Shown: positions 167-61,908, counted from the first letter of the stretch. The stretch: DNA of 64,000 bases from Catajapyx aquilonaris (GCA_000934665.2 KZ538242.1:1-64000); one strand, 5' to 3'. The notes: generated by a model from the letters alone, not told the origin. Numbers and translations are program-made.

Positions 167-1827
167 GGGAGATGTTATAGAGACTTGGAGGCAGAGACAG
201 CCAAGAACATAAGTGAAATTGCTGCCCTTGTCGGCAATGTTGATTCAGAGGCTACCTCATCTGATAATGCAGTCCTTCAACAAGTTCATTCCTGTGGGAT
301 TCAAGGATTGTACCTGGTGCAAGAGGAAACACTGAAGCAGGAGACTGGCATGGAGAGTGAATCATGGAGCCAGGTATGGTCATTACTTGACTACGTGAGG
401 GGGTTAGGAACGGAAAGTGGCTTGTGCCGAGAAAACACCACTTTTCGGTTTCGATTTGTATTTCTGCATATGTTATTCCCATGTTTCCTCCTCTTCTTAT
501 GGACCCAAGATAATGCAATTTGACCTGAGCATCTTTGGCTCATTTACCTGCAGGTTTTGATACCAGTGCATCATGTGGGAGAAATGCCTTATTTTATAGG
601 CAGCTTAATACAGCGAAACAGTCAGCCTTCAAACTTGATGATTATGTTTGGGCTTTTTATGAAATCACTGCTTTTGTCAGTAACCTCCCAATTTATGATC
701 CAGGGAAATTATGGGTAGTGCACACTCCCATTATATTATTACCAGTCTCCATTTATCTTGTGATTTTACTTCAGGCCTCTACTTCTGCAAGGTGGGAGAA
801 CACTGAGTCTGTCAAAGTTGAGGAGATTCCTTTAGATGCAAGGTTTTTACATTAGATCCGTTTACATGTGAGCGATTTGATCGTTCGATGTCATCGCCAA
901 GTGATGAATCCAATCTTTTGGGGTGAAAGTTACAATCACGGTATCAGTCGTAACTCGGGTGACTCAGCAATGATGTACGCTCACCTTTATAATTTAGTAC
1001 ATGGCCATCATAATAGAGTAAAGATGAGGAACCAGTTTGCTGAAAGTGATGTGAGCTGATGTGAACAAGAATTTATTCACTAAAAGTCTTATTGAATATT
1101 GCAGGTTGATGAAACAGAAAAGGTTGAAGTCATTGACCTGACCTTGCATGAGAATGACTCCAGGGATGGATGTGCACCATCCGCTCCCTCAGCTGATGAG
1201 GTTGGTTGTGGCTCTGAAACAGATAGTCCAAATGACATTGATGGCTGCTCTTCTCATGGGACTTCTGGTGCTTTGGATACAGTGAAAGGAAAGGAGATTC
1301 CAGGCAAGAAATGGCATCAGTGTGATCTATGCTCATACAAGACTCAAAAGAATTGGTCATTCAACAGGCATAAAATTGTTCACACAAATGATAAAAAGCC
1401 TTTTGGTTGCACTGCCTGTGAAAAAAGATTTACATCCAACCGCAACATGCAGTTGCATTATCAGGGAGTCCATCTTGGCCTTACTACTTTTTCTTGTGGC
1501 GTATGTTATAGGAAATATCGAGATAAGGAGAAATTGGAGGAGCACAAGATGACCCATGCCGGCAGGAAGCAGCATTCATGCATAGTATGCAAACAGTCCT
1601 TTACGCTACCTAAACATTTGAATTATCACATGAAACTTCACACTGGGGAAAGAAAGTTGCACTGTTGCACCCTTTGTGGCAAAGGGTTCAAGTGCAAATA
1701 TGAGTTGGTTGAACATTTTAGAGTCCACACTGGTGAGAAGCCTTATTGTTGTGACATATGCCAATGGAAGTTTGCTCGTCGTAGTCACTTAATTCGCCAC
1801 AAGAAAACCCACTCATGTTCAAGGTAG
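167..1827 (+). CDS. C2H2 zinc-finger protein, 3' part (head upstream of the window or absent); exons ~167-373, 775-837, 1105-1827; 6 fingers
   Basis: ORF 1099-1827 has six CxxC..HxxxH fingers and a TGEKP linker. Upstream exons have AG acceptors in phase 0. The donor after 837 is degenerate. Confidence 0.85.
855..986. mobile_element. MITE (CGTTTACATGTGAGCGATTTG family), degenerate
   Basis: It interrupts the paralog-conserved cacatta|taatttagc with TTA on both sides. Its left end is shared with the elements at 33917 and 46389. Confidence 0.55.
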
Positions 1828-2081
1828 TAGAGTTGCACCTTGTGTAATCACTTAACGTTTGATTCAGTGAGTCTGTGAGAAATATCCAGTAGTGTCCTTC
1901 ACTGCTCTTTCCAGTGCTAAGGGTACTAATAACTGACCATGTTTGGAAATAAATTTCTGACGTGTGAGCACTGATTTAAAAAAAATAAAAGATTTTAAAC
2001 CCCCTTTTTAACCAGATTAGGGTTTATAGTGGGGTGGATTACCACCATTTAGAATAATTATTCCATTTTTATTCCGTCACC

Positions 2082-2250
2082 ATGCAAGGACTTCAGGATG
2101 TGCGGTAGGGACAGGGTAGGGGTGCAGGTTAGGTTGCCGGACACCTGCAAGGTGCGGGCCAGAGACACTCCCGCGACGCAGGTGAAAGGAAAGTTCCCCA
2201 GGCATGGATCGACCCTGGGGCCTCTCATTCAGCAAACCGAGCCTTTACCA
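2082..2250 (-). mobile_element. tRNA-derived SINE fragment
   Basis: Homologous to 29014-29260 (gacgcaggtgaaaggaaagttccccagg...gatcga). Confidence 0.6.
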
Positions 2251-2320
2251 CAGGGATATTCAACTGGCGGACCGCGGTCCGGATCCGGACCGCGACGCAA
2301 TTTTGTCCGGACCGCGACAA
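2251..2320. mobile_element. hAT-like terminal fragment with a perfect 22-bp palindrome (2273-2294)
   Basis: It starts CAGGG..CAACT and is followed by repeated GGACCGCG units. It truncates the adjacent SINE. No partner end was seen. Confidence 0.4.
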
Positions 2321-2437
2321 CATACATAACAGGACAGTTGTTTGAAATAGCAAATGGACTTGAATTATCCTGTTTCCAACACTTGCAGTTCATTGACCAC
2401 ACCGGTCAGAATGCACTCTACGGTCTGTTTTTCAGAC

Positions 2438-2497
2438 GGCGATAGGAACACGCCCTCTTAAACCCAATCCAAGATGGCGACCGTCTCTTTCCTTTAA
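2438..2497 (+). promoter_or_regulatory. Conserved promoter/5'UTR block (CGATA, CACGCCC GC/GT-box, CCAAT, YY1/Pho-like CAAGATGGCG, pyrimidine tract); representative of 16 copies
   Basis: It precedes every head by ~150-180 nt. The ATG within AGATGGC lies at 2474, 9898, 14542, 18817, 22055, 25648, 28055, 30178, 32825, 36650, 40659, 45738, 50231, 54335, 58570 and 62852. Factor assignments rest on motif resemblance only. Confidence 0.65.
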
Positions 2498-2652
2498 GAA
2501 GACTGTTCCTCTGAAGCATTTCCTTCCATTTCCACCTCCTTTTGGACCCCCCTTCCTTCCCTTTGTCCGTCTCCCTTCTGATCCAGCATCATCTGGACCA
2601 TATCATCCGAACATCCTGATCCGGACCGAGGACTCTTAGAGGTGCACAAGCC

Positions 2653-5600
2653 ATGTCTCCAGTCACCCTGGAGTCTCTGATGGAAGTGTCTCTAGGCAAC
2701 AGGAGGATTCTGGAAGGGTTGATGTCACGAATGGACTGGTGCCAGGAGGCCATCGGGAGGGTGGAGGGGTGGATGAAGAAGAAGAAGAAGAAGGGAGGGA
2801 GGGATGAACCAGCAGATACACAAAGCTGCGGACAAGGTGAAGCACAACCATGTTATTCCGAACATTATGTAAGGGTGTGCATCGGATATTAATGCGTCTT
2901 GCGTTCCAGAAGTTGCTTCAGGCCAGTCCCTTCCCATCGAGTTTGTTTCTATGGACACTGGAGATGCAGGTAGCGAGTCAATGCCTGCGTGTGACATTGA
3001 GGAGGAAATAAAAGTGGAGGAAGAGGAATGGGAAGAGGAGCAGGTGAGGACAAGGGTAGGACATGAAGGATCATGTCCTGATGGACTCCGGCTCAAAGTT
3101 GTAATTGGTTTTTGATTCACCTTCGTCTATAAATCCTGCTATAGCCTACTAGCATAGCATTGCTGTCCATCGACACTGGTAAGCATAACCACACAATTTA
3201 AGTCAGCACTAAATTACGACATTTTGGACTCCACTTGTAAATAGCATGATTACTTGTACTTTAAAATGTTGAGTAGAAATTGATGCAGGACAATAAAAAC
3301 TAGAAATATTCATTCAAGAATTTTTGCCCCATTGTGCTCTATGGGAGATCTGACTGTCATGTAATTCAATCACTGGTTATGCAGCAAGTGTTTATTGGGT
3401 ACACTTGATTGGAAACATTGTTTGTAATAAGGTCCTGGGATAGTTAAAAAAATATATTTTAAAGCGCCTGTTACTGCCAGTAACTTGGTTAGTCAATTGA
3501 ATTAATTGTTGTTCTTTTTTAGGACAGATGTTGTAGAGACTTGGAAGCAGAGGCAGTCATAAACATCAGTGAAATTGCTGCCCTTGTTGGCAATGCTGAT
3601 TCAGAAGCTACATCATGTGATCTTCCAGTCATTGGAGGAGTTCATTCCTGTGGGATTCAGGAATCGCACCTGCTTCAAGAGGGAACAGTGAAGCAAGAGA
3701 CGGGGACGGAGAATGAGTCATGGAGCCAGGTACGGTGTGTTTACTTGATTACTGGAGGATTTGGAAGCCATTAGAAGTCAGATTGACCCAACCTCATTCT
3801 GAGAAAATGGAACTTCTCTAGCTTTCATTTGTATGTTATGGTACCAATAAGATGACTCCTTTCGACCAATGTCTTTGTCTGATTAAGCGTGCCATTACTT
3901 GAAGATTTTAATGTCCATGACAGCTCTAAAGCAATGACAATTGAAGACAGCCATGTTTGACAATCACCTCCTCACTTGATTGTGCAGTGTTTGTGTAATG
4001 TACATTTCACATTTCACAGTGAATATTTTGTCGAATGCTCCATATATCTGGAGATCTTTGTTGATAATGTTGTCCGGGAATGCTCCCAAAATTGTTAACA
4101 ATAGTTTTAATGACAAATGATTTAGGGCCTGTTTCACCAAGCCCGGTTTTCATAAAAACCCCTGTTCTTTCGGAAAATCCCTATTCTATTTGCAGGGATT
4201 TTCCGAAAGAACCGCGGTTTTTATGAAAACCTGGCTTGGTGAAACCGGGCCTTATGATTGTTTCCATGAGACAAACTCTGCTGTAAACAAAGTCAAACAT
4301 GTAACTGAAGAATGAATAAGGCAATCATTATACAGGGTGGTTGGTAAATGGCGCCCAATCTTCAGGTAGCGAGATTCCTTGTGAAAAACCAGTATATGGA
4401 AGTGAAGGTCCTATTGCTCTACCATCTACAAATCTCCTTTTCTCTGTAATTTTACTTCAGGCCTCTACTTCCGCCTCTACTTCCTGGGAGAACACTGGGT
4501 CCATCAAAGTTGGGGAGATTCCATTAGAGGCGAGTGTTTCACATTATTTTTGAGCACATGAGCCGGTGTTTGCTGCAACTGATGTGAATAGAACTTATGT
4601 GAACAAGAGCAGGAATATATTCTCTAGAAGTCCTATTTAATATTGCAGGTTGATGAAACAGAAACGGTTGAAGTTGGTGACCTGACCTTGCGTTTGAATG
4701 TCTCCACCGATGAACATGCTCCATCTGCTCACTCAGCTGGTGATCCTGGTTGTGGCTCAAGTCGGAACAAAAACCAAAGGCGACAAAGGAAGGTATGTTT
4801 CTCTTGGTGTTAGGCCAAAACTAAGTGTCCAGTTGCCAAAATTTGGCAAAAGTTAAAGTGGTTAGTGTGGTAAATGCAGCTGGGAGTGGTAGGAAGGGGA
4901 GCAACATCTTACGCCAAAGGGGTAAAGTGCAGACTCTTAGCAAGGAGGTGACGCCCTGAGCTTGCCTGAGCGGCGTTATTGGGAATTAAGTGGAACAGGA
5001 GTTGGTTTTTTTGGGGTTTCCATCTTTTTTTTGTTGAAAAGGCCACAGATTTCTCAAAATGCTATTGTTCTTGATCACAACTTTTGATCAACTTAAAACC
5101 TGGAATGTTCATTCCCGCCTGCATTACTTATAGCGCAAGAAACTAATGCAGCCAACTGAAACAGAGAGTCCCAATGACACTGATGGCTTCTCTGCTGAGT
5201 ACCAGCAGGGCACTTCTGGTGCTTTGGATACAGTGAAAAGAAAGGAGACGCCAGGAAAGAAATGGCGTCAGTGTGATCAATGCTCATATAAGACTCAGGA
5301 CAAAAGTAACTTCAGCAGGCATAAAATTGTTCACAGAAGTCATGAAAAGCCTTTTGGTTGCACTGGCTGCGGAAAGAGATTTAAGACAAACAGCACCTTG
5401 CAGTTGCATTATCAGGGAGTCCATCTTGGTGTGAAGCCTTTCTCTTGTGACATGTGTGATAGGAAGTTTAATAGGAGGTGGACTTTGGAGGAGCACAAGA
5501 TGACCCACACTGGCAAGAGGCAGCATTCATGTGAAGTGTGCAAGAAATCCTTTACTCTAGCTAGGAAATTGAAGTCTCACATGAAACTTCACACGGGAGA

Positions 5601-5769
5601 GAGAGAGTTACACTCTTGCTCTCAGTGTGGCCGAAAGTTTGAGCACAAATTTAGATTGGTTGCCCATATGAAGACACACACTGGTGAAAAGCTGTTCTGT
5701 TGTGACATATGCCAGAAGAAGTTTTCTCTTCTTAGTTATGTTATTCGTCACAAGAAATCCCACGCATAA
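2653..5769 (+). CDS. Complete head + six-finger C2H2 ZNF gene; exons 2653-2836, 2874-3043, 3523-3729, 4461-4529, 4649-4792, 5134-5769 (~469 aa)
   Basis: Exon lengths 184+170+207+69+144+636 = 1410 nt join in frame without stops. Introns are GT-AG except a GC donor at 4530. Intron 1 is only 37 nt. Confidence 0.85.
4125..4251. mobile_element. Palindromic MITE, PIF/Harbinger-like
   Basis: TIRs gggcctgtttcaccaag / cttggtgaaaccgggcc, an almost fully hairpin body, and TTA flanks. Confidence 0.8.
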
Positions 5770-6622
5770 TCAAGGCCACAGAGTTGCGCTATGTGCCGTA
5801 ACACATTTTCAGCCTTGTTTTGAAATATCACATGCTAATGCATGCTGGTGTCAAGTCATTTCATTGCAACTTGTGTCAGAAAATGTCTTGGGATTCCTTT
5901 GTATTATTGAGATCATTCAAATGATGTTATTTTGATATCTGGTTGAACCTAACCATGTTTCTTCCTCAACGTGGATCCAAAGTTACAATAAAAAGCAGGA
6001 AGAGTGAAAAAAAAACTTAAGATTTACATATTTGAACATTTTGAACCTATAAATGTGTCCATTAGCAACTAATCATACATCACGTCCTATACCTGCACTT
6101 ATCTTGCAGTGAAACCAACTGTTTCCTCCTTCAAGCGCCATGTGTAGAGGTCATAATATGCAGCCGTGAACAGTACATGACTGGCAGGGAGGAACAGAAG
6201 GGTAATTTCACTGCATGGTAAGCTTGGTAGAATGTAATTTTAATTACAGGTGACATGAAGATAACAAGTGACTACACTTTCATACTGAAACTGTAGAATT
6301 CATATGTACATTCTTAAAATTTAAAGTCAGTGAGCAATTGAGCACATGGCCCTCGTAAAACTGGTCTCCCCTGTCAAAACTTTGGTGCATTTGGTTTCTA
6401 TCTTCTGCCATGGTTCATTCTGTTTGACGGGAGAATTTTTTGCCATTCTATTGTAATTTTTTCAGCCCACCTTTCGTTCCTGCAACGCATAAATGTACTG
6501 TATGTGTAGGGCAATTTCTGATATTTCATTGTTTATTTTTTGTGTAATCAGTTATAAAAGAAGATTAAAAGTCCTGCAGTAACCTTGTTAGGCAATTGAA
6601 TAAAATTAATTCTTATTTTTAG

Positions 6623-7630
6623 GGGAGCTGCTATAGAGATTTGGAGGCAGAGACATCCAAAAACATCAGTGAAATTGCTGCCCCTGTCGGCAATGCAGAT
6701 TCAGAAGCTACATCACCTGACCTTCCAGTCATTGGAGAAGTTTTTTCTTGTGGGATTCAAGGATTGCAAGAGGGAACAGTGAAGCAGGAGATGGGCATGG
6801 AGAATGAGTTATGGAGCCAGGTATGGTCATTGCTTGATTACTTCAGGAGGTGTAAGCAAAAATGTACTTTTATCGTAGCTTCTTGGCCTAAACCTCATTC
6901 TGAAAATATGCCACTTTTTGTGAGTTGCGATTAGCTGCGAAAGTGATTTGAATGCTCATTCCCACCTACATTACTTTTGAATTCTTTGTAGCACAAGAAA
7001 CTACCGCAGCCAACAGAAACAGATGGTCCAACCAACACTGATGGCTTCTCTGTTCTGTACCATGGGAATCCTGGTGGTTTGGAAATGGTGGAGATGCCAG
7101 GAAGGAAATGGCATCAATGTGGTAGATGCTCATATAAGACTGAATACATTTCTAACTTCAACAGGCATAAAATTGTTCACAGAAGTGGTGAAAAGCCTCA
7201 TGGTTGCACTGCTTGTGAAAAGCGATTTACATCAAGGCACTCCTTGCAATCGCATTATAAGGCTGTCCATCTTGGTTTTAAGGCTTTCTCTTGTGAAGTG
7301 TGCGATAGGAAGTTTCGCGAGAAGAGGCAGTGGGAGAACCACAAGATGACCCACACCGGCATGAAGCCGCTTTCCTGTCAAGTGTGCAAAAAATCATTTC
7401 CTCGTGCTAGACTATTGAAGCATCACATGCAATTTCACACTGGAGAAAGAGAGTTACACTCTTGCTCCATTTGTGACAAATGGTTCGAGTTCAATTCTGA
7501 TTTGGTCACACATGTGAGGGTCCACACTGGTGAGAAGCCTTATTGTTGCGACATATGCCAGAAGAAGTACGCTCATCGTTCCAGCTTAAATAATCACAAG
7601 AAGAAAGATCACTCTGGCGCAAGGTCCTAA
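6623..7630 (+). CDS. Headless C2H2 ZNF cassette; exons 6623-6820 and 6992-7630; 6 intact fingers
   Basis: Both exons are open and have phase-0 acceptors. There is no promoter block or head exon between 5769 and 6623. Confidence 0.75.
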
Positions 7631-8134
7631 GAGATGCACCATGCGGTATAAAACATTTGCGGCCTTACCTGTTTGAAAATGCCAGATGTTAATACACACT
7701 GGTGTTAAAACCATTTCAGTGCAACACGTGTCAGAAAATGTCTTTTTGCAGTTCATTCCTGAACAAACATGTAAAAGTGATTCACCAGAGAAAAGAAGCA
7801 GTTGTACCATTTTTAAAGAAGGCAGAGGGTGAAAAAAAAACGTGCCCTCCACTTGGTAGTGCAAAGAGTACTGAATAACTGACTGTATATATTAGGAAAT
7901 AAATTGCTGTTGGGTGAACATTAATGACAATGAAAACACAGACAGGAATAACAATGAAGTCTTATTTCGGACCGAAGCTACAACTCGACTGTCTTGGATG
8001 ACAGCTAATCCAGAACTTATTACAACATTCCAAACTAACTCTGCTTCTAATATTCAAAACATCAACAGTTTGGTTGACTAGGTAACAGTCAACCATCCCA
8101 GTGCCAGGACACTGCCGTTCTTATTTTTTTAAAG

Positions 8135-9323
8135 GGAAGCTGAAATAGGAACATGGAAGCAGAGACAATCAAAAACATGGGTGAAATTTCTGGCCTTGTT
8201 GGCAATGTTGATTCAAAAGCTTCTGCATCCTGGGAGACCACTGGGTCCGCCAAAGTTGAGGGGATTCCATTAGAGGCAAGTGTTTTTCACATTATGATTT
8301 AGCACATGGTCCTCATAAAGGAGTAAAGATGCGGAAACAATTTTCTGTAAGTGATGTGAATAGAACTGATCAGAAGAAGGGCAGATTCACTAATAGTTCT
8401 TGCATATTGCAGGTTGATGAAACAGAAGAGAAGGTAATCGATGACCTGACCGTGTGTTCGAATGACTCCAGCGATGATCATTCCCCATCTGCTCCCTCAG
8501 CTGGTGATCCTCTTCGTGAATCAAGTCGGGGAAAAAACCAAAGGCCACAAAGAAAGGTACGTTTGTCTTAGTGTTAGTGTTAAGTAAATCAGAGGCCAAA
8601 CCCAACTTATTAAAAATCAGGCGCTTTTGCCGATTGACTTTAACATCAACTCCCATTGCCCCACCTGTACTACTATTCAATTCATTGCAGCACAAGAAAC
8701 TACTGCAGCCAACCACAACAGATAGTCCAAATGACACTGATGGCTTCTCTGATCAGAACCATGGGACTTCTGGTGCTTTGGATACAGTGAAGGGAAAGGC
8801 GATGCCGGCGAAATGGCACCAGTGCGATCTATGCTCCTATAAGACTCAAAACAGTAGAAACTTCAACAAGCATGAAACTGGTCACAGAAGTCATGAAAAG
8901 CCTTTCGGTTGCGCTGCTTGTGAGAAACGATTTATGACAAACCGCTACATGTGGTTGCATTATCAGGCTGTACATCGTGGTGATGCTTCTTTTTCTTGTG
9001 AAGTGTGCCATAAGAAGTTTAGCGAGAAGAGGAATTTGGAGGAGCACAAATTGACCCACACTGGCAGGAAGCAGCATTCATGTCAAGTGTGCAAGAAATC
9101 CTACACGCTAGCTAGGCACCTGAAGTATCACATGCAAATTCACACCGGAGAAAGAGAGCTAGACTCTTGCACCCACTGTGGCAAAGGGTTTGAGCGCAGA
9201 TGTCACCTGATTGTACATGTGAGGGTCCACACTGGTGAGAAGCCCTATTGTTGCGACATTTGCCAGAGGAAGTTTGCTTATCGCTCTACCTTTCTTCAAC
9301 ACAAGAAAACCCACTCGGGATAA
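8135..9323 (+). CDS. Headless C2H2 ZNF cassette or pseudogene; exons 8135-8275, 8413-8556, 8691-9323; 6 fingers
   Basis: The finger exon is intact. The first exon has TGG>TGA at its third codon, followed by an in-frame ATG at 8153. No head lies upstream. Confidence 0.65.
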
Positions 9324-9648
9324 GTAGGGTCGTAGAGTTGCTCCATTCTTTGATAAAACATTTTCTGCCTTACTTTGTTTGAAAGTTAATGCAACTTGTG
9401 CCTTCTCGCAGTTCATACCTGAAAAGCGATGTGCTATGGAAGACAAGAAGGTTTTTATGATTTAATTTTTTTCAGAACTAATAAGCGGGCAATTCCTTTC
9501 TGTTGATGAGATTACAATAAAAATGTACTAAGAATGAAAGATGATTGGCACTTATTTTTAAATGTTTCCAGCATTTTTCCATTTACAAGGTCAATTTCAA
9601 GTAGAGCGCCGATGAGTGTGGCAGCCGTAGCGAATGCGCCCTCCCCCC

Positions 9649-9672
9649 NNNNNNNNNNNNNNNNNNNNNNNN
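9649..9672. other. Assembly gap (24 N) within a poly-C tract
   Basis: A run of N flanked by C homopolymers. Confidence 0.95.
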
Positions 9673-10061
9673 CCCCCCCAAAAAAAAAATAAGAAATTAA
9701 TACTTCCCGACTGAGTTTTCCAGGCAGCCACAACTACCCTCCCGCCTTCCAATGCTCACATGTCACGCACTAAGTTATTAATTAATATTAAACAAATTCA
9801 AATAATTTGCATATTTGTTGGCTTCCAGTCAGAAGGCACCCTCAGGACTGTTTTTTCAGGCAGCGATGCGAACACGCCCTCTTAAACCCAATCCAAGATG
9901 GCGACCGTCTCTTTCCTTTAAGAAGACTGTTCCTCTGAAGCATTTCCTTTCCATTTCCGCCTCCTTTTGGACCCCCCTTCCTTCTCTTCTGGTCCAGCAT
10001 CATCTGGACCATCTGTCGAACATCCTGATCCGGACTGAGGACTCTTAGAGGTGCACAAGCC

Positions 10062-12058
10062 ATGTCTCCAGTCACCCTGGAGTCTCTGATGGAAGTGTCT
10101 CTAGGCAACAGGAGGCTTCTGGAAGGATTGATGTCACGAATGGACTGGTGCCAGGAGGCCATCGGGAGGGTGGAAGGGTGGATGAAGAACAGAGGGAAGG
10201 AAGGTACGCATGACGCATATGAACAAGGGTGTGCGTCGGATATCAATGCGTCTTGCATTCCAGAAGTTGCTTCAGGCCAGCTGCTTCCCACCGAGTTTGT
10301 TTCTGTCAACACTGGAGATGCAGGCTGCGAGTCAATGCCTGCAAACATTGAAGAGGACATAAAAGTGGAGGAAGAGGACTGGGCATCGCAGCAGGTGGGG
10401 CCGGATCAAGTGCCGATAGCGCCTGAAAATAAAAAGTGCCTCTAATCTTCTTCGTCAATTGAATAAAATTGTGTTCTTATTTATTTAGGAGAGCTGGAAC
10501 AGAGACTTTGAAGCAGAGACAGCCAAAAACATCAGTGAAATTGCTGCACTTGTCGGGAATGTTGATTCAGAAGTTGGACGTTCAGTAGGTATGACACATT
10601 CTTTACTGTCGCACCTGCATGTTAGAAGGCGCGTAGGACTACTGGAAATGAAACCATGCTTTAATATGTTCCGATTAGTGTTGTTAATTATTCTTCTAAT
10701 AAGTTTCATAATATGCTGAGCATGAACCGTTCCCAAAAGTTGGGAAGTATCATTTGGACCAAACAGTCAGAGGTGGTCAGAGCAATTTTGGGTTAATGTG
10801 TGGAGTCAAACTGGATGCTCTTAAATGATCCGCTCTGTGTGCCACCTGAATCAGCCATTTTTCTGTGTTCATTTGCAGGTGGAGCGGCTTCCTCACTTTC
10901 TGCAGCCTTGGAGAACACCGAATCCGTCAAACTTGAGGAGATTCCATTAGAGGTAAGTGTTTCACGTTACAATTTAGCTGGTGGCAAAAGAGTCACGGTG
11001 AGAAAGCAGTTTGCTATTAGTGATGTGAATAGGACTGATGAAAACAAGTGCAGGGACAGATTCACTAATAGTTCTATTGAATATTGCAGGTTGATGACAC
11101 AGAAAAGGAAGAAATCGGTGACCTGATCTTGCATGTGAATGACTCCAGCAATGAACATGCCCCATCTGACCACTCAGCTGGTGATCCTGGTTGTGGCTCA
11201 AGTCAGAAAATCAACCAAAGGCAACAAAGGAAGGTATGCTTCTCATTGTGTTAAGCGAATCTAGACCTAACCTAATTGATGGAAAAGAAGGGTTTTATGC
11301 CATAGCATGAACTTAACATGAATCTAAACGTGAACAGCATTGGTGTAATATCACACCTTTCACCAGAATAAATGACTGCACTGACACCTCCATTACTTTT
11401 GGATTTCTTGTAGCACAAGAAACGAATGCAGCCCACTGACACAGAGAGTTCAAATGACTCTGCTGAATACCAGGGCACTTCTGGTTCTTCGGATACGGTG
11501 AAAGAAAAGGAGATGCCAGGAAAGAAATGGCTTCAGTGTGATCAATGCTCATATAAGACTCGAGACAATAGTAACTTCAGAAGGCATAAAATTGTTCACA
11601 GAAATGACGAAAAGGCTTACTGTTGCACTGCCTGTGGAAAGAGATTTACGTCCAACCGCAACATGCAGTTGCATTATCAGACTGTCCATCTGGGTGTTGC
11701 CCCTTTCTCTCGTGAAGCGTGTGATACTGAGAGGAAGTTTAGTGAGAAGAGGAATTTGGAGGAGCACAAGACGACCCACGCTGGCAAGAAGCAGCATTCA
11801 TGTGAGGTGTGCAAAAAATCATTCATTCTAGCTAGGCAATTAAAGTGTCACATGCAACTTCACACTGGACAACGAGAGGTACACACTTGCTTCTATTGCG
11901 GCAAAGAATTTAACTACAAATGTCACATGGTTGAACATTTGAGGGTCCACACTGGTGAGAAGCCACATCGCTGTGACATATGCCAGAGGAAGTTTGCTCA
12001 TCGTTCCACCTTAAATAATCACAAGAAAACGCACAAAGGAGTGACCACTGCTACTTGA
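10062..12058 (+). CDS. Head + C2H2 ZNF gene; exons 10062-10394, 10489-10588, 10879-10952, 11090-11233, 11414-12058
   Basis: The exons join in frame. Finger 3 is damaged (FSREACDTERKF: first Cys lost plus a 2-aa insertion). Confidence 0.82.
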
Positions 12059-12408
12059 AAATATTCTTACGTATAGTGCAGTACTGTACTACTGATCTTA
12101 ACATATGCCCCAAATTTGGTGTATGAATAAAAGGGAAGGAGTAGTCCTTATTATTAAGGCATTTTCACTTCTTCAATTGTCCGCAATTCCAAGGCTAATG
12201 CTATCGGTCCGGTCCGTTCCCTGTCTGGCATGGCCACGCAGGAGACGCAGACAGCGAGTCATTGCCTGCGTGTGACATTGAAACAGAAATAAAAGTGGAG
12301 GAAGAGGACTGGGGAATGGAGCAGGTGAGGACAGGACGGGACGCAGGGTCAAGTGCTGAAAGGCTAAAATTTAAAAGGGCCTGTCACTTTGTTAGTCAAT
12401 CAAATTAA

Positions 12409-12852
12409 CACTTAATCACCAGCGTGAATCTGCCATACATTGGCTACGACGTGGGATCTTTACCACGCAGTTTTAATTTGTTTAAATTTTTGAATTAATA
12501 GCACTAAAGCCATTCTTCCCCGCTAAATTCGGCCTGTATTTTCATCTGTATGTGTAAAAAAAAATCGATCTCCTGCGACCAATTGCTGTGATGTGCTGTG
12601 CTGTGTTTTCTAAAAAAATTATGCGCATTGGCTACGACATGGGGTATATCTGGACCCCACAGGGACGCTTAGCAGCAGAAAAGTACCGGTAACTCTCCCA
12701 AAAAAAAAAATCTACTGATGTCAAAATTTTTCACTGGATCGAAGAAAGTATGTCTGAGGAATAAAGGCCTGCCATTTTTCATTTCATGCCAAATTTATTA
12801 ATCGCGATGGTATTACCTGCTTTGTGGGGGCCAAAAAGTTGGTGATTAAGTG
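12409..12852. mobile_element. Non-autonomous piggyBac-like element
   Basis: TIR cacttaatcacca / tggtgattaagtg with TTAA on both sides. The empty site is visible in the paralog at ~3493. Confidence 0.8.
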
Positions 12853-12875
12853 TTAATTGTGTTCTTATTTTTCAG

Positions 12876-13958
12876 GGGAGCTGGACCCGACACCTGGAAG
12901 CAGAGACAGCCAAAAACATGAGTGAAATTGCTGCCCTTGTCGGCAATGTTCATTCAGAAGATGGACGCTCAGGAGGTGTGGCGCATTCTTTAATGTCCCA
13001 CGTGCATGTTAGAAGGGAGGCAGGCTAATTGGATTTAAAACCATGCATTAATATGTGCCAATAGCAGTGTTATTAATTAACCTTTTAATAAGATTCATAA
13101 AATTTGCTAAGCAGCAGCTTTGGCAAAAGTTGGGAAGTGTCATTAGAACCAAGCAGGAATAAACTGTCAGAGGTGGTCAGAGTAGTTTAGGGTTAATCAG
13201 TGGAGTCAAACTGGATGCTCCTAACTGATCCGCATTTTGTGCCATCTGAATCAGCCATTTATATGTGTGACCTTCCAGGTGGAGCAGCTTCCTCACCTTC
13301 TGCAACTTGGGAAAACACTGATTCCATCAAACTTGAGGAGATTCCATTAGAGGCAAGTGTTTCACACTATAATTTAGCACCTTGCCCTTGGAATGGTGCT
13401 TTGGAAATGGTGAAAGGAAAGGAGATGCCAGGAAAGAAATGGTACCAGTGTGATCTGTGCTCATATAAGACTCAAGACAGATCAAACTTCAGCAGGCATA
13501 AAATTGATCACAGGAGTGATGGAAAGCCTTTCGGTTGCACTGGTTGCGACAAGAGATTTATGACGAACCAACGCTTGCAGTTGCATTACCAGGGAGTCCA
13601 TCTTGGTATTAAGCATTATTCTTGTGAAGTGTGTGATACGAAATTTTGTGATAAGTGGATATTGGAGGACCACAAGATGATCCACACTGGCAAGAAGCAG
13701 CATTCATGTCAAGTGTGCAACAAATCTTTTACTCTACCTAAACATTTGAATTATCACATGAAACTTCACACCGGGGAAAGAGAGCTACACCCTTGCTCCA
13801 TTTGCGGCAAAGAGTTCGTATGCAAATCTCAATTGGTTATTCATATGAGGATTCACACTGGCGAGAAGCCGTATTGTTGTGACATATGCCAGAGAAAATT
13901 TGCTCAAAGTTCCAGTTTAATTGATCACAAGACAACCCACATAGGAGCAAGGTCGTAG
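12876..13958 (+). CDS. Headless C2H2 ZNF cassette; exons ~12876-12975 and 13279-13958, preceded by a partial exon 2 at ~12230-12324
   Basis: ORF 13200-13958 has six intact fingers. There is no promoter block or exon 1 between 12058 and 12230. Confidence 0.75.
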
Positions 13959-25808: not shown

Positions 25809-26228
25809 ATGTCTCCAGTCACCCTGGAGTCTCTGATGGAAGTGTCTCTAGGCAACAGGAGGCTTCTGGAAGGGTTGATGTCACGAATGGACTGGTGCCA
25901 GGAGGCCATCGGGAGGGTGGAGGGGTGGATGAAGAAGGAGAAGCGTGGAAGGGAAGGTACGCATGAAGGAGGAACAAGGGCGTGTGCATTGGATATCAAT
26001 GCGTCTTGCATTCCAGAAGATGCTTCAGGCCAGTCCCTTCCCACCGACTCCGTTTCTGTGGACACTGGAGACGCAAGAAGCGAGTCAATTCCTGCGTGTA
26101 AGATTGAAGAGGACATAAAAGTGGAGGAAAAGGATTGGGAGTCTGAGAAGGTGAGGACAGGAACAAAGGAGAATGAGACGGGTACTGAGAATGAGGTATG
26201 GAGCCAGGTATGGTCATTAGTTGATTGA
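25809..26228 (+). CDS. Finger-less 'head-only' paralog (head + exon 2 + end of exon 4 fused); finger exon deleted
   Basis: This is an open 139-aa ORF. At ~27060-27110, last-intron sequence (ggccacagattgct) joins directly to 3'UTR sequence homologous to 44185-44500. Confidence 0.65.
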   Translation: MSPVTLESLMEVSLGNRRLLEGLMSRMDWCQEAIGRVEGWMKKEKRGREGTHEGGTRACALDINASCIPEDASGQSLPTDSVSVDTGDARSESIPACKIEEDIKVEEKDWESEKVRTGTKENETGTENEVWSQVWSLVD

Positions 26229-28225: not shown

Positions 28226-28902
28226 ATGGCTCCAGTCACCCTGGAGTCTCTGATGGAAGTCTCCCTTGGCAACAGGAGGCTTCTGGAGTGTTTGGTCTCC
28301 AGGATGGACTGTCAGGAGGCCATCGGGAGGATGGAGGGGTGGATGAACAGAGCTGGAGGTGGGAGAGACGGAGCAAGTATGCAAGGTGAAGCATGAGCAT
28401 TTTCCATGATCATTCTGAACCACTTTGTACGGGTGTGCATCGGATATTAATGCGTCTTGCATTCCAGAAGTTGCTTCAGGCCAGCTGCTTCCCACCGAGT
28501 TTGTTTCTGTCAACACGGGAAATGCAGGCAGTGAGTCGATGCCTGCGTGTAAGATTGAAACAAAAATAAAATTGGAGGAAGAGGATTGGGAACCAGATAA
28601 GGTGAGGAGAGGTCAGGGGAACTTGAAGGATCAAGTTATGCTGGTTTCTGGCAGTGAAATGTTAATTTTGCAAAATGTGTTGTTATTTTTTTTAGGGGAG
28701 CTGGAATAGAGACTTGGAGGTAGAGACAACCAAAAACATCAGTGAAACTGCTGCCCCTGTCGGCAATGCTGATTCAGAAGCTACATCACCTGATCATCCA
28801 GTCATTGGAGAAGTTCATTCCCATGGGATTCAAGGAATACACCTGCGTCAAGAGGAAGAACTTGAACAGGAGAAGGGCATGGAGAGTGAGTCATGGACCC
28901 AG
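28226..28902 (+). pseudogene. Finger-less paralog (head, exon 2, exon 3/4); downstream part replaced by a SINE and a piggyBac fragment
   Basis: The head is MAPVTLESL with one Trp codon deleted. The exon-2 acceptor is mutated (..gtacg instead of ..gtaag). No finger exon occurs before the next unit. Confidence 0.65.
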
Positions 28903-29260: not shown

Positions 29261-29359
29261 TGATGTCGCAGTGCTTGTAGCCGATATTCTAAAGCAGGAA
29301 ATATTTTTTAGGGGCTTCAAATTTCAATTAGACAACCCACAATGTAAATGAAGGGGTTA

Positions 29360-29770
29360 ATTTTTTTAAATGTTTCCCATACCATCAACACCGCACCTCT
29401 GAATGCATACATTATTTATCTGCAGGCTAATGACAGCCACATATCAAGAAGGACATTCCTGCATCAGCTGGGTCGATCTCTCCTCCCCACCCAGCATTTG
29501 AGGCTGATGGTAGATGACCACCACCTACCCGGAGAAGCGAGGAAGAGGATCATGGAGCTCACCAACACACCCGTGAATCCCACTCCATTGCCCCAGCCAC
29601 CTGCAAAAAAGTCCCGACAGCGGTGTGTCCTTTGTGACAGGTCCAAGGACAGGAAGCTCAGGACAAAATGCGATGAGTGCCACCAGTCTGTATGTGTACA
29701 GCACTCCACGAAACGCACCTACGTAGTATGCCAAGTATGCCTGAAACCTGATGAGATTGGTAGATTATAA
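29360..29770 (+). mobile_element. piggyBac (PGBD-like) transposase C-terminal fragment with cysteine-rich domain
   Basis: NAYIIY..SRRTFLHQLGRSLL...RQRCVLCDRSKDRKLRTKCDECHQSVCVQH is a typical piggyBac C-terminus. Confidence 0.85.
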
Positions 29771-30344: not shown

Positions 30345-32649
<2,305 letters not shown>

Positions 32650-35941: not shown

Positions 35942-38444
35942 TGAAACATTTTTGCTGCCTTACCTGTCGGAAAACATGTTAATGCAAACTGCTGTTACAC
36001 CTTCTCACATTCGGTGCAACTTGTGTCAGAATATGCATTCTTGCAGATTATTCCTGAATGAACATGTAAAAGTCATTCCGCAGGGAATTCTTTGTGTTGA
36101 TGACAGTCATTCAAATAATGGGACTGGCGGGACCTACAAGTCCCTACTTTTCATACTGAAAGTGTTGCATTCATGGGTAAATAGTTTATATTGAATTTAT
36201 GAGTAAATGTCCTCCACTTTTTAGCGCAAAGGGTTACTGAGGGACTGCCTGTTATTATTTGGAAATAAAGTGCTGCTGTGTGAACATCAATATTATTCTG
36301 AGTTTTTGTCATTCCTTCGCTGGCTGCCGCAGTTATAACTGTTTCGTAGGACAATTGGTTTTATTTGATTGTAATGTACGTGTCAGTACGGATGGAACAC
36401 GGTTGATTGCACAACCACGACTGATTGGCAATTGATATCAGAATGTCGGTGACAAATGTTCATGCATCACTCACTGGTCATTATAATTAACATTAACAAA
36501 TAAATTCACAGTATTTAATGTATGATGCTGTGAATCCAGTTGATTTTATTTCCAACACTGCCATTCCATTGATAACATCGGCCAGAACGCACCCTGCGAA
36601 CTGTTTCTCAGACGGCGATAGGAACACGCCCTCAGGAATCCAATCCAAGATGGCGACCGTCTCTTTCCTTTAAGAAGACTGTTCCTCTGAAGCATTTCCT
36701 TTCCATTTCCGCCTCCTTTTGGACCCCCTTCCTTCAGATCCAACTCCAGGATTTGACTGGCATCATCTGGTCTTCCCTTGCCGACATCAGAATCCGGACT
36801 GAAGGCTCTAGGTTTGAAGCAATGGCTGCTCCAGTCACCCTGGAGTCTCTGATGGAAGTGTCTCTTGGCAACAGGAGGCTTCTGGAATTGTTGGTCTCCA
36901 GGGTGGACTGGTGTCAGGAGGCCATCGGGAGGGTGGAGGGGTGGATGAAGAAGCATGGAGGGGAAGGGGCAGAAGGTGAAGCACGTACTGAGCATTTCCA
37001 TGATAATACTGAATCACTTTTTTAAGGGCGTGCCTTCCATTTCAGAAGTTGCTTCAGGCCAGTCCCTTCCCATTGAGTTTGTTTCTGTCAACACTGGAGA
37101 TAAAAGCAGCGAGTCAATGCCTGCGTGTGACATTGAAACGGAAATTAAAGTGGAGGAAGAGGATTGGGAACCATCAGACATGGTATGGTCAGGGGGTAGA
37201 TCGCATGAAGGGTCAAGCGCTCGTAGACTCTAGTGGTGAAATGTCAGGTTTTCAATTTATTTGATGTTGTTTTTGTGGATGACCACCTCCACCTTAAAGT
37301 AGCAATAAGTGGTTTATTCATGTAGTTAAAAATTTTGATGATAAATTGACAGAAAAATAAGCACTTGAGGCATTAAATGATTCATGGCATTTTGCCATGT
37401 TGGTTCATGGTAGACGTGAGTGTCACGTAATTAAGCACTGGTCATATGGGACATTGGGTTATTGTGACACATGATTGGAAACACAGTTTGCAAAATGGGG
37501 TTGGGAGAGTAAGTAGAAAAATTTAAAGTGCCAGTACTTAGTCAATTGAATAAAATGTGTTAATATTTTTTTCCAGGGGATCTGGAATAGGAACATGGAA
37601 GCAGAGACGGCCAAAAATATGAGTGAAATTGCTGCCCTTGACAGCAATGTTGTTTCAGAAGTCAGACATGCAGCAGGTATGACACATTGTCTAATGTGCA
37701 TGTTGAAGGCCTACTGGAGTTGAAACCATGCTTTAAAATGTGCCAGTTTCAGTGCTGTTAATAATCCTCCGAATATGTTGAATCTTGATTTGCTGAGCAT
37801 GAACCTTGTCCTGGAAGTTGGGAAGTATCATTTGGACCAAGCAGGAATAATATTGTCAGAGGTGGTCAGAGCAGTTCAGGGTTAAACTGGATATGCTTAG
37901 CTTACCCACTTTGTGTGTCAATCTGACTCAGCTGTTTTTTTGTGTTCACTTGGAGGTGGAGCAGATTCCTCAACTGATCTTCCAGTCAATGAAGAAGTTC
38001 ATTCTTATGAGATTCAAGGATTGGACTTGCTTCAAGAGGGAACAGCGAAGCAGGAGACAGGCACGGAGAGTGAGTCATTGAGCCAGGTATGGTCATTACT
38101 TGATTGCATGAGGAGATGGAAGCCAAAAGTGGCTCTCTTTCACCTCGAATCATATTCCGAGGAAATGCATCTATTCAGATTCGATTTGTATGGATGCAAA
38201 TGTGATTCCTGGATTTCAGGTTGATGAAATGGAAAAGGCTGAAATTGGCGACCTGAACTTGCATGTGACTTACTCCAGCGATGAACATGCCCCATCTGCT
38301 CACTCCGCTGATGATCCTGATTCTAGCTCAAGTGGGAACAAAAACCAAAGGCTACAAATGAAGGTAAGTTTGAAGTGGTATTAAGCAAATCATGGCCAAA
38401 CACAACTGAAAGTGTTTTTGCCAGTTAACTTGAATCGTAACAGA

Positions 38445-39652
38445 GGCAGTGAGAGAGGGACATTATGTATTTTTTTGACCAATACTTCACTTCGATTCCT
38501 CTTCTAAAACAACTAGCTAAAAAAGGAATCGCGGGTACGGGAACGATTCTGATCAATAGAATTCCGAAAAAAACAAATCCAGTTAAGGAAGGACAAGGAG
38601 ATGATGAAGGAGGGCCGAGGGTCCTATGATCAGATGGTACAGGAAGACGGGGAACTGGTGATTGTAAAATGGCTTGACAACAAACCTGTCTGTATGGGAT
38701 CCAATTTCATCGACTCTCAACCTGTGGGCCAGTGTGACAGATGGTCCGAAAGGGATTGCATATACATTACAGTTCAATGCCCGTCTATTGTTTGAATTTA
38801 CTATTTAAAAATGAGCAGGGTTGATCTTGGTGACAGAATGCTCCGCTTCTTTAGCATGTCTGCCAGGACCAAGAAGTGGACGGTCCGCACAATAATGAAT
38901 TTCATCGATTTAATGATCGTAAATGCATGGTTTGAGTATCAAAAGGACCAGGCAGCAATTGGTGCACTAAGTAAATTGATATTTCAGCTCCTTGATTTTA
39001 AGTTGAAGGTAGCTGAAAGCCTCGTAAGAGCTGTTGAAGAAGAGGAGAAGGATTGTGAAGATGATGGACCAGTAGTGCCGGTACCGAAGAAGAAGAAGAA
39101 AATTGTACCATTGCCTTCCACTCCCCAACGTAAAGAGCATGCTTGGCACATGCCAGAAGTAGTGAAAATGAAACACTTTGCAAAATGCAGGCTGCCTACA
39201 TGCAAGCAGAGGAGCCGCACGAGGTGCAGCAAGTGCAAAGTATTTTTGTGCCTCACTGCAGAGAGAAATTGTTTCAAAGAATTTCATTTATGAAATTTAG
39301 GTCATTAAAATGGTCCTCTGAGAGAAAAAAGAAAGTGTGTCATTCCTATTTTACAATTTCCACTTCCACAATTAAATGTAATTATAAATATAACATAATA
39401 CATATTATATGTAATATAATTAGAATTACAAATATATTATAATGAATAATTACATATAATTATATTTACAAATTTCAGGCATTTTCAATAATTGAATTTT
39501 GTAGAGAGGGTAATATCACATTGAATTTTTCGCAAAACTGAAGTGTGCAAATATTTCGCAATCCTTTTTTCTTGCTCTTGGCAGAATGTAGAGTTAAAAA
39601 ATTACTCTGGCAAGTATATTCTGTAAGTATTTTTGTCTTGGGTCTCAGGAGG
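38445..39652 (+). mobile_element. 5'-truncated piggyBac transposon with a disrupted transposase and an intact right end
   Basis: Reads YFFDQYFTSIPLL..GTGT, a frameshift at ~38575, KEGRGSYD..WLDNKPV, an in-frame TGA at 38793, VDLGD..KKW and a C-terminal Cys-rich domain. It ends ggtctcaggagg|TTAA at 39652. Confidence 0.88.
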
Positions 39653-39752
39653 TTAAATAGCATACCAAGTACTGTTCATAATATTTATGAATTATTGGGT
39701 TAAGTAACGTTGAAAAAAAAAAAAACGTGTTTTGTGTTTTGATCATGACATA

Positions 39753-40172
39753 CGGGGGTGAATCAAAAAATAACATTTAAAATTACGAAGCCTCACTCCA
39801 GAAACTTAAACTGACATGCACGTACGAAAGGGCAAGTCTCTCTCTGCTTTCCAACACAATCGCAACACGCAGTGATGCACTAATCCCACCGCGATGCTAG
39901 ATTTACAAGCCACAGCATCAAAAAGCTTCACGCTTGCTGCGAAGTAAGTAGAAAGCGGCCTTGTTTCCCTTCCTTGTTGTTGCTGATGCTTTTTCATTGG
40001 TTTGAGTAGATGATAATTATCACTTGGGGCGAAGCCAGGGCTACAAGGCGTTGTGCATTAATGTCAAAAAGTAGAGAAAGATGTGCCCTTTCATATGTGT
40101 ATGCCAGTTTCAATTTATGTGGTGAAAATTTGTAATAAAACAAGTTGTGCATTACTTTTTGATTTGCCATCG
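39753..40172. mobile_element. Non-autonomous mariner-derived element
   Basis: TA|cgggggtgaatcaaaaa ... tttttgatttgccatcg|TA, with internal inverted repeats. Homologous remnants lie at 16640-16993, 48160-48310 and 52440-52634. Confidence 0.7.
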
Positions 40173-40820
40173 TATTAAAACTTTGGTAGAATTGTGGTTT
40201 CTATCTTGGTTTGAAGAAAGGCCACAGATCATTCTAATGTTCTTAATCACCACAACTTATTGAGATCAACGTTAAAATTTGAAGTGCTCATTCCTACCTC
40301 GCTTACTGTTGAATTATTTGTAGCGCAAGTAGGAGCAAGGGCATAGAGTTGTGCCATGTGCCATATATGTGACATTTGCTGCCTTGGATATGACAATGTC
40401 AAAGGTCAATATCAATGGGGGGAAAAAAATCATTTAAAATGTAAAAATCAAAGTGTCAGTGTGACATGCTCATATGAACTTGTCTATTGTTCAATATTAA
40501 CAAATTCACAGAATTTAATAAACTGGTGATGCACATTCACTGGACAAATAACTCTGTTTCCAACCCTGGTCAATCCGTTGAACACACCGGTCGGAAGGCA
40601 CCCTACTCACTGTTTCACAAGCAGCGATATGAACGCGCCCTCTAAAATCCAATCCAAGATGGCGACCGTCTCTTTCCTTTAAGAAGACTGTTCCTCTGAA
40701 GCATTTCCTTCCATTTCCACCTCCTTTGGTGTCCTGCCTTCCTTTTTTCAACTCGATTCTGATCCAGCATCATCTGGACCATCAGTCGAACATCTGAGGA
40801 CTCTTAGAGGTGCACAAGCC

Positions 40821-61700: not shown

Positions 61701-61908
61701 GTATCACAGGCAACTTCACACCGGAGAAAGAGAGTTACACTTTTGTACTCAATGTGGCAGAGGGTTCGGCTACAAATCTCACTTGGTTGAACATGTGAGG
61801 ACTCACACTGGTGAGAAGCCGTATTCTTGTGACATTTGCCAGATGAAGTTTGCTCAACGTGGTACCTTAACTCAGCACAAGAGAACCCACACAGGAGCAA
61901 GGTCATAG
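58740..61908 (+). CDS. Head + six-finger ZNF gene with an internal duplication of exons 2-3 (second copy ~59675-60017)
   Basis: ORF 58740-59108, two copies of the DLEAETAK exon (~59178 and ~59918), and an intact terminal exon 61264-61908. Confidence 0.78.

What the first reader, a model, noticed from the sequence alone, without database searches (positions are those of the whole stretch)
2653..13958. Headless but intact finger cassettes: possible one-head, many-finger alternative (or trans-) splicing
Seen: the cassettes at 6623-7630, 8135-9323 and 12876-13958 have no promoter block or exon 1, yet keep six intact fingers and good acceptors. The unit at 40821 has an intact body behind a broken head junction. 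The exon2/exon3 junction and all junctions after exon 4 are phase 0, so an upstream head could join any downstream body in frame. Established: Drosophila lola, broad and mod(mdg4) splice a shared N-terminal domain onto alternative zinc-finger exons, with trans-splicing at lola and mod(mdg4). Inference: the array may generate combinatorial isoforms. Caveat: the 8135 cassette has a TGA in its first exon, so that exon would have to be skipped.
Basis: partly seen in the sequence, partly recalled or inferred. Interest (0 to 1): 0.75.

Follow-up and report, generated by a model that had tools for sequence, protein, structure and literature searches.

The report
Headless zinc-finger copies as alternative endings
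In a tandem array of animal zinc-finger genes, three old gene copies have lost their promoter and first exon yet keep six intact DNA-binding fingers, likely because the gene in front sometimes reads through and splices onto them as alternative endings, a step that is still unseen in RNA.

Summary
Core observation confirmed. Cassettes 6623-7630, 8135-9323 and 12876-13958 lack promoter block and exon 1, but keep six fingers, acceptors and AATAAA, and join the upstream heads in frame. Corrections: unit 40821 is intact, 12876 keeps part of exon 2, and one junction class is phase 1. The cassettes are deletion-beheaded old paralogs, 75-78% identical to the upstream gene's finger exon, not recent duplicates. 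Their fingers evolve like those of headed genes, so they are still used or died within about the last 1-2% of divergence. The two genes with two cassettes behind them have the two most T-poor finger-exon acceptors of 32 (post hoc). Best reading (0.5): cis read-through that skips the upstream last exon. Rivals: recent death (0.25; finger-less heads are equally intact) and own start codons (0.17). Trans-splicing has no support. 'Combinatorial' overstates it, as heads are near-identical anyway. No transcript could be tested. The scan noted the same layout before on other DNA of this genome (e1-7682556, e1-9190265).

The parts
2405..2652 (+). Promoter/5' leader block of gene U2653, YY1-like core at 2470 (label recalled)
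   Evidence: homology to the other promoter blocks of the window
2653..2836 (+). U2653 exon 1 (ATG; helical head; phase-1 donor)
   Evidence: the paralogous head folds as one 42-residue helix
2910..3043 (+). U2653 exon 2 (acidic), phase-0 donor
3523..3729 (+). U2653 exon 3, phase 0/0
4461..4529 (+). U2653 exon 4, GC donor
4649..4792 (+). U2653 exon 5; its donor is the predicted switch point
5134..5769 (+). U2653 own six-finger last exon; acceptor has lost about 11 nt of the family T-tract; AATAAA at 5987
6419..6622 (+). Deletion junction near 6550: pre-promoter intergenic DNA joined to the last 70 nt of intron 2
6623..6820 (+). Cassette 1 exon 3 (open; first AUG out of frame)
6992..7630 (+). 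Cassette 1 six-finger last exon, near-consensus acceptor; AATAAA 268 nt after the stop
8135..8275 (+). Cassette 2 fused exon 3/4 with TGA at 8141 and in-frame AUG at 8153; AAG acceptor, GC donor
8413..8556 (+). Cassette 2 exon 5 (open)
8691..9323 (+). Cassette 2 six-finger last exon; AATAAA 193 nt after the stop
9828..10061 (+). Promoter/leader block of gene U10062 (24-N gap upstream at 9649-9672)
10062..11233 (+). U10062 exons 1 (10062-10203), 2 (10264-10394), 3a (10489-10588, phase-1 donor), 3b/4 (10879-10952), 5 (11090-11233)
11414..12058 (+). U10062 own finger exon: five intact fingers, finger 3 lacks a cysteine; stop and AATAAA (12126) come from foreign DNA
12042..12240 (+). Foreign filler at the rearrangement that removed the end of U10062 and the head of the next unit
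   Evidence: no family homology; one 42-nt, 90% match elsewhere in G000
12242..12324 (+). Cassette 3 remnant of exon 2 with intact donor and in-frame AUG at 12316
12403..12858 (.). Non-autonomous DNA transposon (19-nt perfect inverted ends, TTAA flanks) ending 18 nt before the 12876 acceptor
12876..12975 (+). Cassette 3 exon 3a (phase-0 acceptor, phase-1 donor; first AUG in frame at 12918)
13279..13958 (+). Cassette 3 last exon: E3b/E4 fused in frame to six fingers; AATAAA 42 nt after the stop

Best explanation
Three old paralogs in a zinc-finger array lost promoter and exon 1 by rearrangement but kept in-frame acceptors, six fingers and a poly(A) signal, and they are likely still used as alternative 3' ends of the gene in front, which would sometimes skip its own last exon, read through and splice onto them in cis. 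Shown: the anatomy, the frames, the deletion junctions, the age of the paralogs and the selection pattern on their fingers. Inferred: read-through and the junctions. Predicted main joins are 4792>6623 or 6992, 4792 or 6820>8413 or 8691, and 11233 or 10394>12876. The products would be one helical head plus acidic linker with two or three different DNA-reading finger sets. The TGA exon at 8135 would be skipped or its product destroyed.
For: (1) The finger exons are 16-19% from their nearest paralog among 34, on tips of 0.15-0.21 substitutions/site. A fully neutral tip is rejected (33 lnL units for the three). Pooled omega is 0.001 at zinc ligands, 0.37 in the core, 1.62 at DNA contacts and 0.50 elsewhere, against 0.009/0.51/1.52/0.58 for 12 headed window genes; the neutral share of each tip is at most 14-17%. 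(2) Lesion clock: 152-164 inactivating hits per unit divergence per finger exon, none seen, so each has been dead for at most 0.02 (0.0064 pooled). The one stop lies in a skippable front exon. The likelihood ratio for alive over dead is 25-760 at a purge rate of 30 and 2-60 at 100. A steady dead-on-arrival state needs a beheading rate that only 0.8% of median tips would survive, and no two of 34 intact finger exons are over 87.6% alike. (3) Headless finger exons behind a headed gene are intact in 6 of 6; those with no head upstream in the DNA fetched are broken in 2 of 2 (p 0.036). (4) The two genes with two cassettes behind them (5134 here; G000:C1793 minus strand, acceptor at 12211) have the two most T-poor finger-exon acceptors of 32 (5 T against a median of 10). 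Exact p is 0.005-0.11 over four measures and two groupings. A weak terminal acceptor is the published trigger for skipping the last exon and its poly(A) site (PMC13501980, section 5). (5) Cassettes start 636-750 nt after the upstream AATAAA. (6) U10062's own finger 3 is broken while the cassette behind it is whole.
Against: No junction has been seen. The selection test is blind to recent death: the broken exon on C555 also scores f = 0 (0-0.13). The three finger-less heads in the window (25809, 28226, 36822) are lesion-free too, as a recent burst of deletions would give. If dead cassettes are purged fast, the ratio falls to 0.6-18 (rate 300). The acceptor test is post hoc for 5134 and depends on the measure: the C1793 site ranks 6 of 32 on the matrix score, and U10062's own acceptor is ordinary. 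Every upstream gene keeps its AATAAA. In two of three cassettes the first AUG is in frame, which points to independent translation. One of the two broken controls lies only about 3.3 kb from its contig start.
Confidence: 0.5

Rival explanations
1. Recently dead genes: the cassettes were ordinary headed genes until deletions removed their heads within about the last 1-2% of divergence. They are silent or passengers and have not yet decayed.
For: The array is full of partial units in both directions. The 3 finger-less heads in the window are also open. A dead control escapes the omega test. In-frame joints follow from paralogy alone. The TGA at 8141 can be read as first decay.
Against: It needs three near-simultaneous deaths here and three more on C1793, without matching births. 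Dead relatives gather lesions fast: 3 in the C2250 copy at 92% finger identity to its intact sister. The single stop sits in a 141-nt exon holding about 12% of that cassette's lesion target. The junction fillers have no near-identical source in G000, a weak hint of age.
Confidence: 0.25
2. Independent short genes: a cassette is transcribed from a new cryptic promoter or non-coding leader and starts at its own AUG, giving a finger protein without the helical head (299 aa from 8153; 245-262 aa from 12918 or 12316).
For: The first AUG after the exon-3 acceptor is in frame in 2 of 3 cassettes against 2 of 40 other units (p 0.019, post hoc), with a purine at -3. The TGA at 8141 would then be harmless 5' leader. 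CpG o/e before 12242 (0.60) is within the range of headed promoters.
Against: No family promoter core precedes any cassette. The DNA before 6623 and 8135 is AT-rich and CpG-poor (o/e 0.36-0.37 against 0.56-0.91). The AUGs are not new: units with heads (34300, 37577, one on C5491) share them. The first AUG is out of frame in 6623 and in 2 of 4 C1793 cassettes.
Confidence: 0.17
3. Trans-splicing as at mod(mdg4)/lola: cassettes are transcribed separately and joined to a head from another transcript.
For: Heads and tails come apart in the array: three headless tails and three finger-less heads in the window. Trans-splicing between paralogs is reported in insects (PMC4667647, passages).
Against: All parts are collinear on one strand, so cis-splicing suffices. 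No site with 9 or more of 11 U1 pairs lies in intron 5 of U2653 or U10062. No separate promoter was found for the 3' units. The finger-less heads 25809 and 36822 keep their own AATAAA.
Confidence: 0.03
4. Assembly artefact: near-identical heads were dropped by a short-read assembler.
For: The assembly is fragmented (20,583 contigs) and exon 1 is 97-100% identical among many units.
Against: A repeat collapse leaves one head in place and does not join non-homologous DNA. The junctions carry no N and join intergenic DNA or unique filler to intron 2 or exon 2.
Confidence: 0.05

Closest known systems
Read-through chimeras of adjacent genes (cis-SAGe / TIC; PMC13501980, passages and section 5 read)
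   Same: Close same-strand neighbours; predicted skipping of the upstream last exon and its poly(A) site, with splicing to the next acceptor; a weak terminal acceptor favours it.
   Different: Here the downstream partner has no family promoter and is a paralog, so the chimera would be its main route to expression and would keep the normal domain order.
Drosophila genes with tandem multi-exon 3' cassettes: pipe, CG42235, PGRP-LC (PMC6191721, passages)
   Same: Multi-exon cassettes in tandem behind common 5' exons, each an alternative 3' end.
   Different: For CG42235 the paper traces the cassettes to tandem duplication of the gene's own 3' cassette, and it finds docking/selector RNA pairs in all three genes. 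Here the finger exons rank 32, 28 and 15 of 33 in likeness to the upstream gene, so they are beheaded separate genes, and no pairing above controls was found.
Drosophila lola and mod(mdg4) (PMC4528330, PMC4387717, PMC4667647; passages); broad only as mentioned in PMC4528330
   Same: Outcome, if the splices occur: one N-terminal head on alternative zinc-finger ends.
   Different: No BTB domain. The window holds 15 promoter cores, not one shared head. There are 2-3 ends per head, not 20-30. No opposite-strand exons and no TSA-like U1 site in the last common intron.
Birth-and-death C2H2 zinc-finger clusters such as vertebrate KRAB-ZNF clusters (recalled; search listing only)
   Same: Tandem genes with a small conserved head, a last exon holding all fingers, fast-changing DNA contacts (omega 1.66) and fixed zinc ligands (0.017), many partial copies.
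   Different: The head is an unnamed 42-residue helix with no relative found and appears homogenised by gene conversion.

Membership tests
BTB-zinc-finger loci (lola, mod(mdg4), broad) | N-terminal BTB/POZ domain | tested here: not met
   no Pfam family on the head; model is one helix, residues 6-47; 0 hits among 1.84 billion representatives
BTB-zinc-finger loci (lola, mod(mdg4), broad) | One set of common 5' exons serving a long array of alternative finger exons | tested here: not met
   15 promoter cores and 16 heads in 64 kb; at most two extra cassettes per head
BTB-zinc-finger loci (lola, mod(mdg4), broad) | Head-to-alternative-exon junctions in mRNA | not testable with these tools
   no transcript data could be laid on the locus
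mod(mdg4)/lola trans-splicing | Strong U1-binding pseudo-5' splice site (9 or more pairs) in the last common intron | tested here: not met
   none in intron 5 of U2653 or U10062; one in U2653 intron 2 (3176) and two at 7911 and 8079, with no chance control; criterion from PMC4387717
mod(mdg4)/lola trans-splicing | 3' exons transcribed from their own promoters or from the other strand | tested here: inconclusive
   same strand; no family promoter core; cryptic promoters cannot be excluded
Tandem 3' cassette genes (pipe, CG42235, PGRP-LC) | Promoterless multi-exon cassettes behind common exons with in-frame acceptors and own poly(A) signal | tested here: met
Tandem 3' cassette genes (pipe, CG42235, PGRP-LC) | Origin by duplication of the gene's own 3' part | tested here: not met
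   finger exons 75-78% identical to the upstream gene's, at or below the family median; only the front exons of 12876 share a derived layout with U10062
Tandem 3' cassette genes (pipe, CG42235, PGRP-LC) | Docking/selector RNA pairings | tested here: inconclusive
   no long inverted pair links donor introns to cassette acceptors; duplex energies lie within the range of 25 control acceptors; only 150-nt windows tested, no cross-species check
Read-through chimeras (cis-SAGe) | Adjacent same-strand genes at short distance | tested here: met
   515-750 nt from an upstream AATAAA to the next usable acceptor
Read-through chimeras (cis-SAGe) | Weak terminal acceptor or poly(A) site in the upstream gene | tested here: inconclusive
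   5134 lowest or joint lowest of 32 on four measures (matrix, T count, T run, consensus match), 11414 ordinary; AATAAA present in both genes
Read-through chimeras (cis-SAGe) | Spliced reads joining the two genes | not testable with these tools
   no transcript data could be laid on the locus
Tandem C2H2 zinc-finger gene family | C2H2 fingers with conserved ligands and fast DNA-contact residues | tested here: met
   Pfam PF00096/PF13465; omega 0.017 at ligands and 1.66 at contacts

The most novel reading that the evidence does not exclude
The array is being converted, several times independently, from separate genes into small lola-like loci. Deletion beheads a long-diverged paralog, the gene in front adopts it as an alternative DNA-binding end, and that gene's own last-exon acceptor then weakens to share the output. 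This would be a route to one-head, many-finger loci by gene fusion instead of exon duplication, caught in intermediate stages.
Probability: 0.3. Interest if true: 0.65.

Novelty: new variant of a known kind. Interest (0 to 1): 0.4.

Why it matters
How loci such as lola and pipe came to share one head among many DNA-binding ends is usually explained by exon duplication. If the junctions exist, this array shows a second route, the rescue of beheaded paralogs by read-through. It also shows that promoterless 'pseudogenes' in zinc-finger clusters can stay under selection. There are six such cassettes on two contigs, each with exact, cheaply testable junctions. If the junctions do not exist, it is ordinary turnover of a tandem family. 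The gain in protein diversity is modest either way, because the heads are already almost identical.

Tried and rejected
Transcript test: no RNA holder listed for window 2400-9600, so no reads were laid; this is no evidence either way. Protein databases held no family member: the head gave 0 of 69 candidates, the finger profile's best 120 hits were at most 46% identical, the head profile gave 0 hits, and the Atlas's best score was 0.84. They therefore gave no spliced isoforms. Recent partial duplication of the upstream gene: rejected. Headless cassettes as the missing halves of the finger-less heads: best matches of only 82-89% for the 8135 front exons and no reciprocal pair. Newly evolved start codons: rejected, the AUGs are shared with headed units. 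Broken head junction at 40821: rejected. TSA-like U1 sites and docking/selector pairs: not found. In one search three of the four free foreground omegas did not move because of a rounding fault in my script. I use the refit; the fixed-omega comparisons are unaffected. Homo-oligomer prediction for the head: no job ran and there is no verdict. No fold search was made, since a single helix gives meaningless matches. A look-up of earlier notes on spliced-leader trans-splicing listed none that claims it for this genome among the 8 shown. Literature searches for a beheaded paralog recruited as a 3' end in a zinc-finger array listed no such paper. The library lacks most subscription journals and I read no supplements.
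Full report
Setting. The window is G000:C433:1-64000 of an unnamed animal assembly of 286 Mb. It is a tandem array of six-finger C2H2 genes, all on the + strand. The unit is: promoter block, exon 1 (ATG, phase-1 donor), acidic exon 2, exon 3 (in some units split by a phase-1 intron), exon 4 (GC donor), exon 5, and a last exon with linker and all six fingers. Further units lie on at least ten other contigs; counts are lower bounds, as 40 of 58 candidates were scored. The head has no Pfam family, no relative in the protein searches, and folds as a single 42-residue helix, so it is not BTB.

Observation. The three cassettes lack promoter and exon 1, keep all 24 zinc ligands and AG acceptors, and have an AATAAA after the stop. 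So do 4792>6623, 4792>6992, 4792>8413, 6820>8413 and 11233>12876. Three corrections follow. Unit 40821 is intact. Cassette 12876 retains 83 nt of exon 2 with its donor, and its fingers are fused in frame to exon 3b/4 with no acceptor of their own. The phase-1 joint there limits which donors fit. In-frame compatibility is what paralogy gives: a full gene's exon 5 also fits the next full gene's exon 3.

Origin. At 6550, pre-promoter intergenic DNA is joined to the last 70 nt of intron 2. Before 8135, pre-promoter homology ends near 7940 and about 170 nt with no other match in G000 precede the acceptor. At 12041, family homology of U10062 stops just before its normal stop codon; about 200 nt of foreign DNA supply a new stop and AATAAA, then exon 2 resumes. 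No N lies at these joints. The finger exons are 81-84% identical to their nearest paralog and 75-78% to the gene in front, ranks 32, 28 and 15 of 33. They are therefore old, separate genes that lost their heads, not fresh partial duplicates. The front exons of 12876 do share a derived layout with U10062.

Selection. I aligned 34 open finger exons. Left out were two with in-frame finger deletions, the divergent finger exons at 50% identity or less, and at first the three broken ones. I fitted a codon model with site classes fixed in advance from finger geometry. Omega is 0.017 at zinc ligands, 0.36 in the core, 1.66 at DNA contacts and 0.57 elsewhere. The three headless tips are 0.15-0.21 long and show 0.001, 0.37, 1.62 and 0.50, like 12 headed window genes; the neutral share of each tip is at most 14-17%. 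Full neutrality is rejected by 33 log units. The limit of this test is shown by a dead control: the C555 exon, with a stop and a frameshift, also scores zero (0-13%). The tree is star-like and poorly supported, and gene conversion is not modelled.

Lesion clock. From four close pairs I counted 37 indels (28 frameshifting) per 272 substitutions (tally by hand). With stops and ligand losses this gives 152-164 hits per unit divergence per finger exon. A lesion-free exon has thus been dead for at most 0.02, or 0.0064 if all three died alike. The only stop among 49 exon-3 starts is in the skippable front exon of 8135. The likelihood ratio for 'fingers still protected' over 'dead since beheading' depends on how fast dead copies are purged: 275-8,258 at rate 10, 25-760 at 30, 2-60 at 100 and 0.6-18 at 300. 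Fast steady turnover fits badly, because it would leave short tips and close pairs, and the closest of 34 intact exons are 87.6% alike. A recent burst of deletions is not excluded. It gains weight from the three finger-less heads in the window, which are also lesion-free. Across the fetched DNA, headless finger exons behind a headed gene are intact in 6 of 6, and those without a head upstream are broken in 2 of 2 (p 0.036). A third broken exon (C5491) is the only finger exon of a rearranged headed unit and was left out. So were two promoterless units that keep exon 1, both with open finger exons.

How they could be expressed. A review of read-through chimeras states that such mRNAs tend to skip the upstream last exon, because recognition of the terminal acceptor and of the poly(A) site are coupled (PMC13501980; passages and section 5 read). 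U2653's own finger acceptor (5134) has lost about 11 nt of the family T-tract and ranks last of 32 on a crude matrix. On T content it ties for last with one other acceptor, on C1793 (minus strand, 12211), whose gene also has two headless cassettes behind it. Exact p values run from 0.005 to 0.11. I chose that measure after seeing 5134, the C1793 site ranks 6 of 32 on the matrix, and U10062's acceptor is ordinary, so this is suggestive only. Against it stands the own-start reading. The first AUG is in frame in 8135 and 12876 but in only 2 of 40 other units (p 0.019, post hoc). These AUGs are shared with headed relatives, however, and no family promoter core or CpG-rich DNA precedes 6623 or 8135. 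The two readings may apply to different cassettes: 6623 has no in-frame first AUG and sits behind the weak acceptor, while 12876 has one and sits behind a normal acceptor.

Trans-splicing and combinatorics. mod(mdg4) and lola use a strong U1-binding site in the last common intron (PMC4387717, passages), and mod(mdg4)'s 3' parts come from independent transcripts, some on the other strand (PMC4667647, passages). Here everything is collinear and no such site lies in either intron 5. Exon 1 differs by only 0.057 at four-fold sites among eight units whose fingers differ by 0.256, which I read as gene conversion. The array already puts nearly the same head on many finger sets, so swapping heads by splicing adds little beyond shared control. 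The finger sets do differ in their contact residues.

Comparison and verdict. It would work like Drosophila genes with tandem 3' cassettes (pipe, CG42235, PGRP-LC; PMC6191721, passages) and, in outcome, like lola (PMC4528330, passages). It is not a member of the BTB-finger family, and it differs from the cassette genes in origin. PMC3923563 (passages) only warns that such exon copies can also be tandem genes. Eight searches listed no paper on beheaded paralogs recruited in a zinc-finger array; the library is partial and no supplements were read. Earlier notes of this scan describe the same layout elsewhere in this genome, one of them claiming a splice (e1-7682556). I found a unit of matching size and layout on C1793 whose first cassette shows the same selection pattern. 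Verdict: real anatomy; cis read-through use 0.5, recent death 0.25, own start 0.17, artefact 0.05, trans-splicing 0.03; new variant of a known kind; interest 0.4.

Noticed in passing
window 25809-26207, 28226-28902, 36822-40340: Three finger-less heads with open frames and phase-0 donors. At 40324 the finger-exon acceptor and 3' UTR survive but the fingers are cleanly deleted, predicting a 224-aa head-only protein.
   Followed up: partly
window, exon 1 of most units (e.g. 2653-2781, 10062-10190, 25809-25937): Exon 1 is 97-100% identical across units and contigs, silent sites included, while the promoter block is at most 87-91% alike to the nearest others and fingers about 78%; likely gene conversion or a DNA-level constraint.
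   Followed up: partly
window 1105, 8135, 10879, 13279, 24613, 26017, 31966, 43378, 57437: Nine internal deletions fuse neighbouring exons and all keep the frame, a sign of selection on the open frames. The set was picked from open frames, so the count is biased.
   Followed up: partly
window 10062, 25809, 30345, 54502, 58740: Intron 1 is open and in frame in 5 of 16 heads; at 30345 the usual donor is gone, so the intron is probably retained.
   Followed up: no
window 38450-39293 and 29348-29770: Transposase remnants, piggyBac-like by recall: a weak DDE_Tnp_1_7 hit below the Pfam cut-off at 38796-39290 and no hit at 29348-29767. The first also lies in the related units on C3658 and C2250.
   Followed up: no
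window 4124-4252: 59-nt inverted repeat, 92% complementary, in intron 3 of U2653; probably a small transposon.
   Followed up: no
window 12403-12858: Transposon family with at least 40 copies in G000 at about 84-92% identity; this copy lacks about 180 nt internally.
   Followed up: partly
G000:C5491 (L007) minus strand, about 2890-1590: Two finger exons fused in frame into one 12-finger exon.
   Followed up: no
G000:C3166 (L024) minus strand, about 17800-12600: Four heads in a row with no finger exon found in the fetched contig.
   Followed up: no
window 58740-61908: Unit with an internal repeat of exon 2 and exon 3a; the second copy is about 93% identical to the 54502 unit.
   Followed up: no
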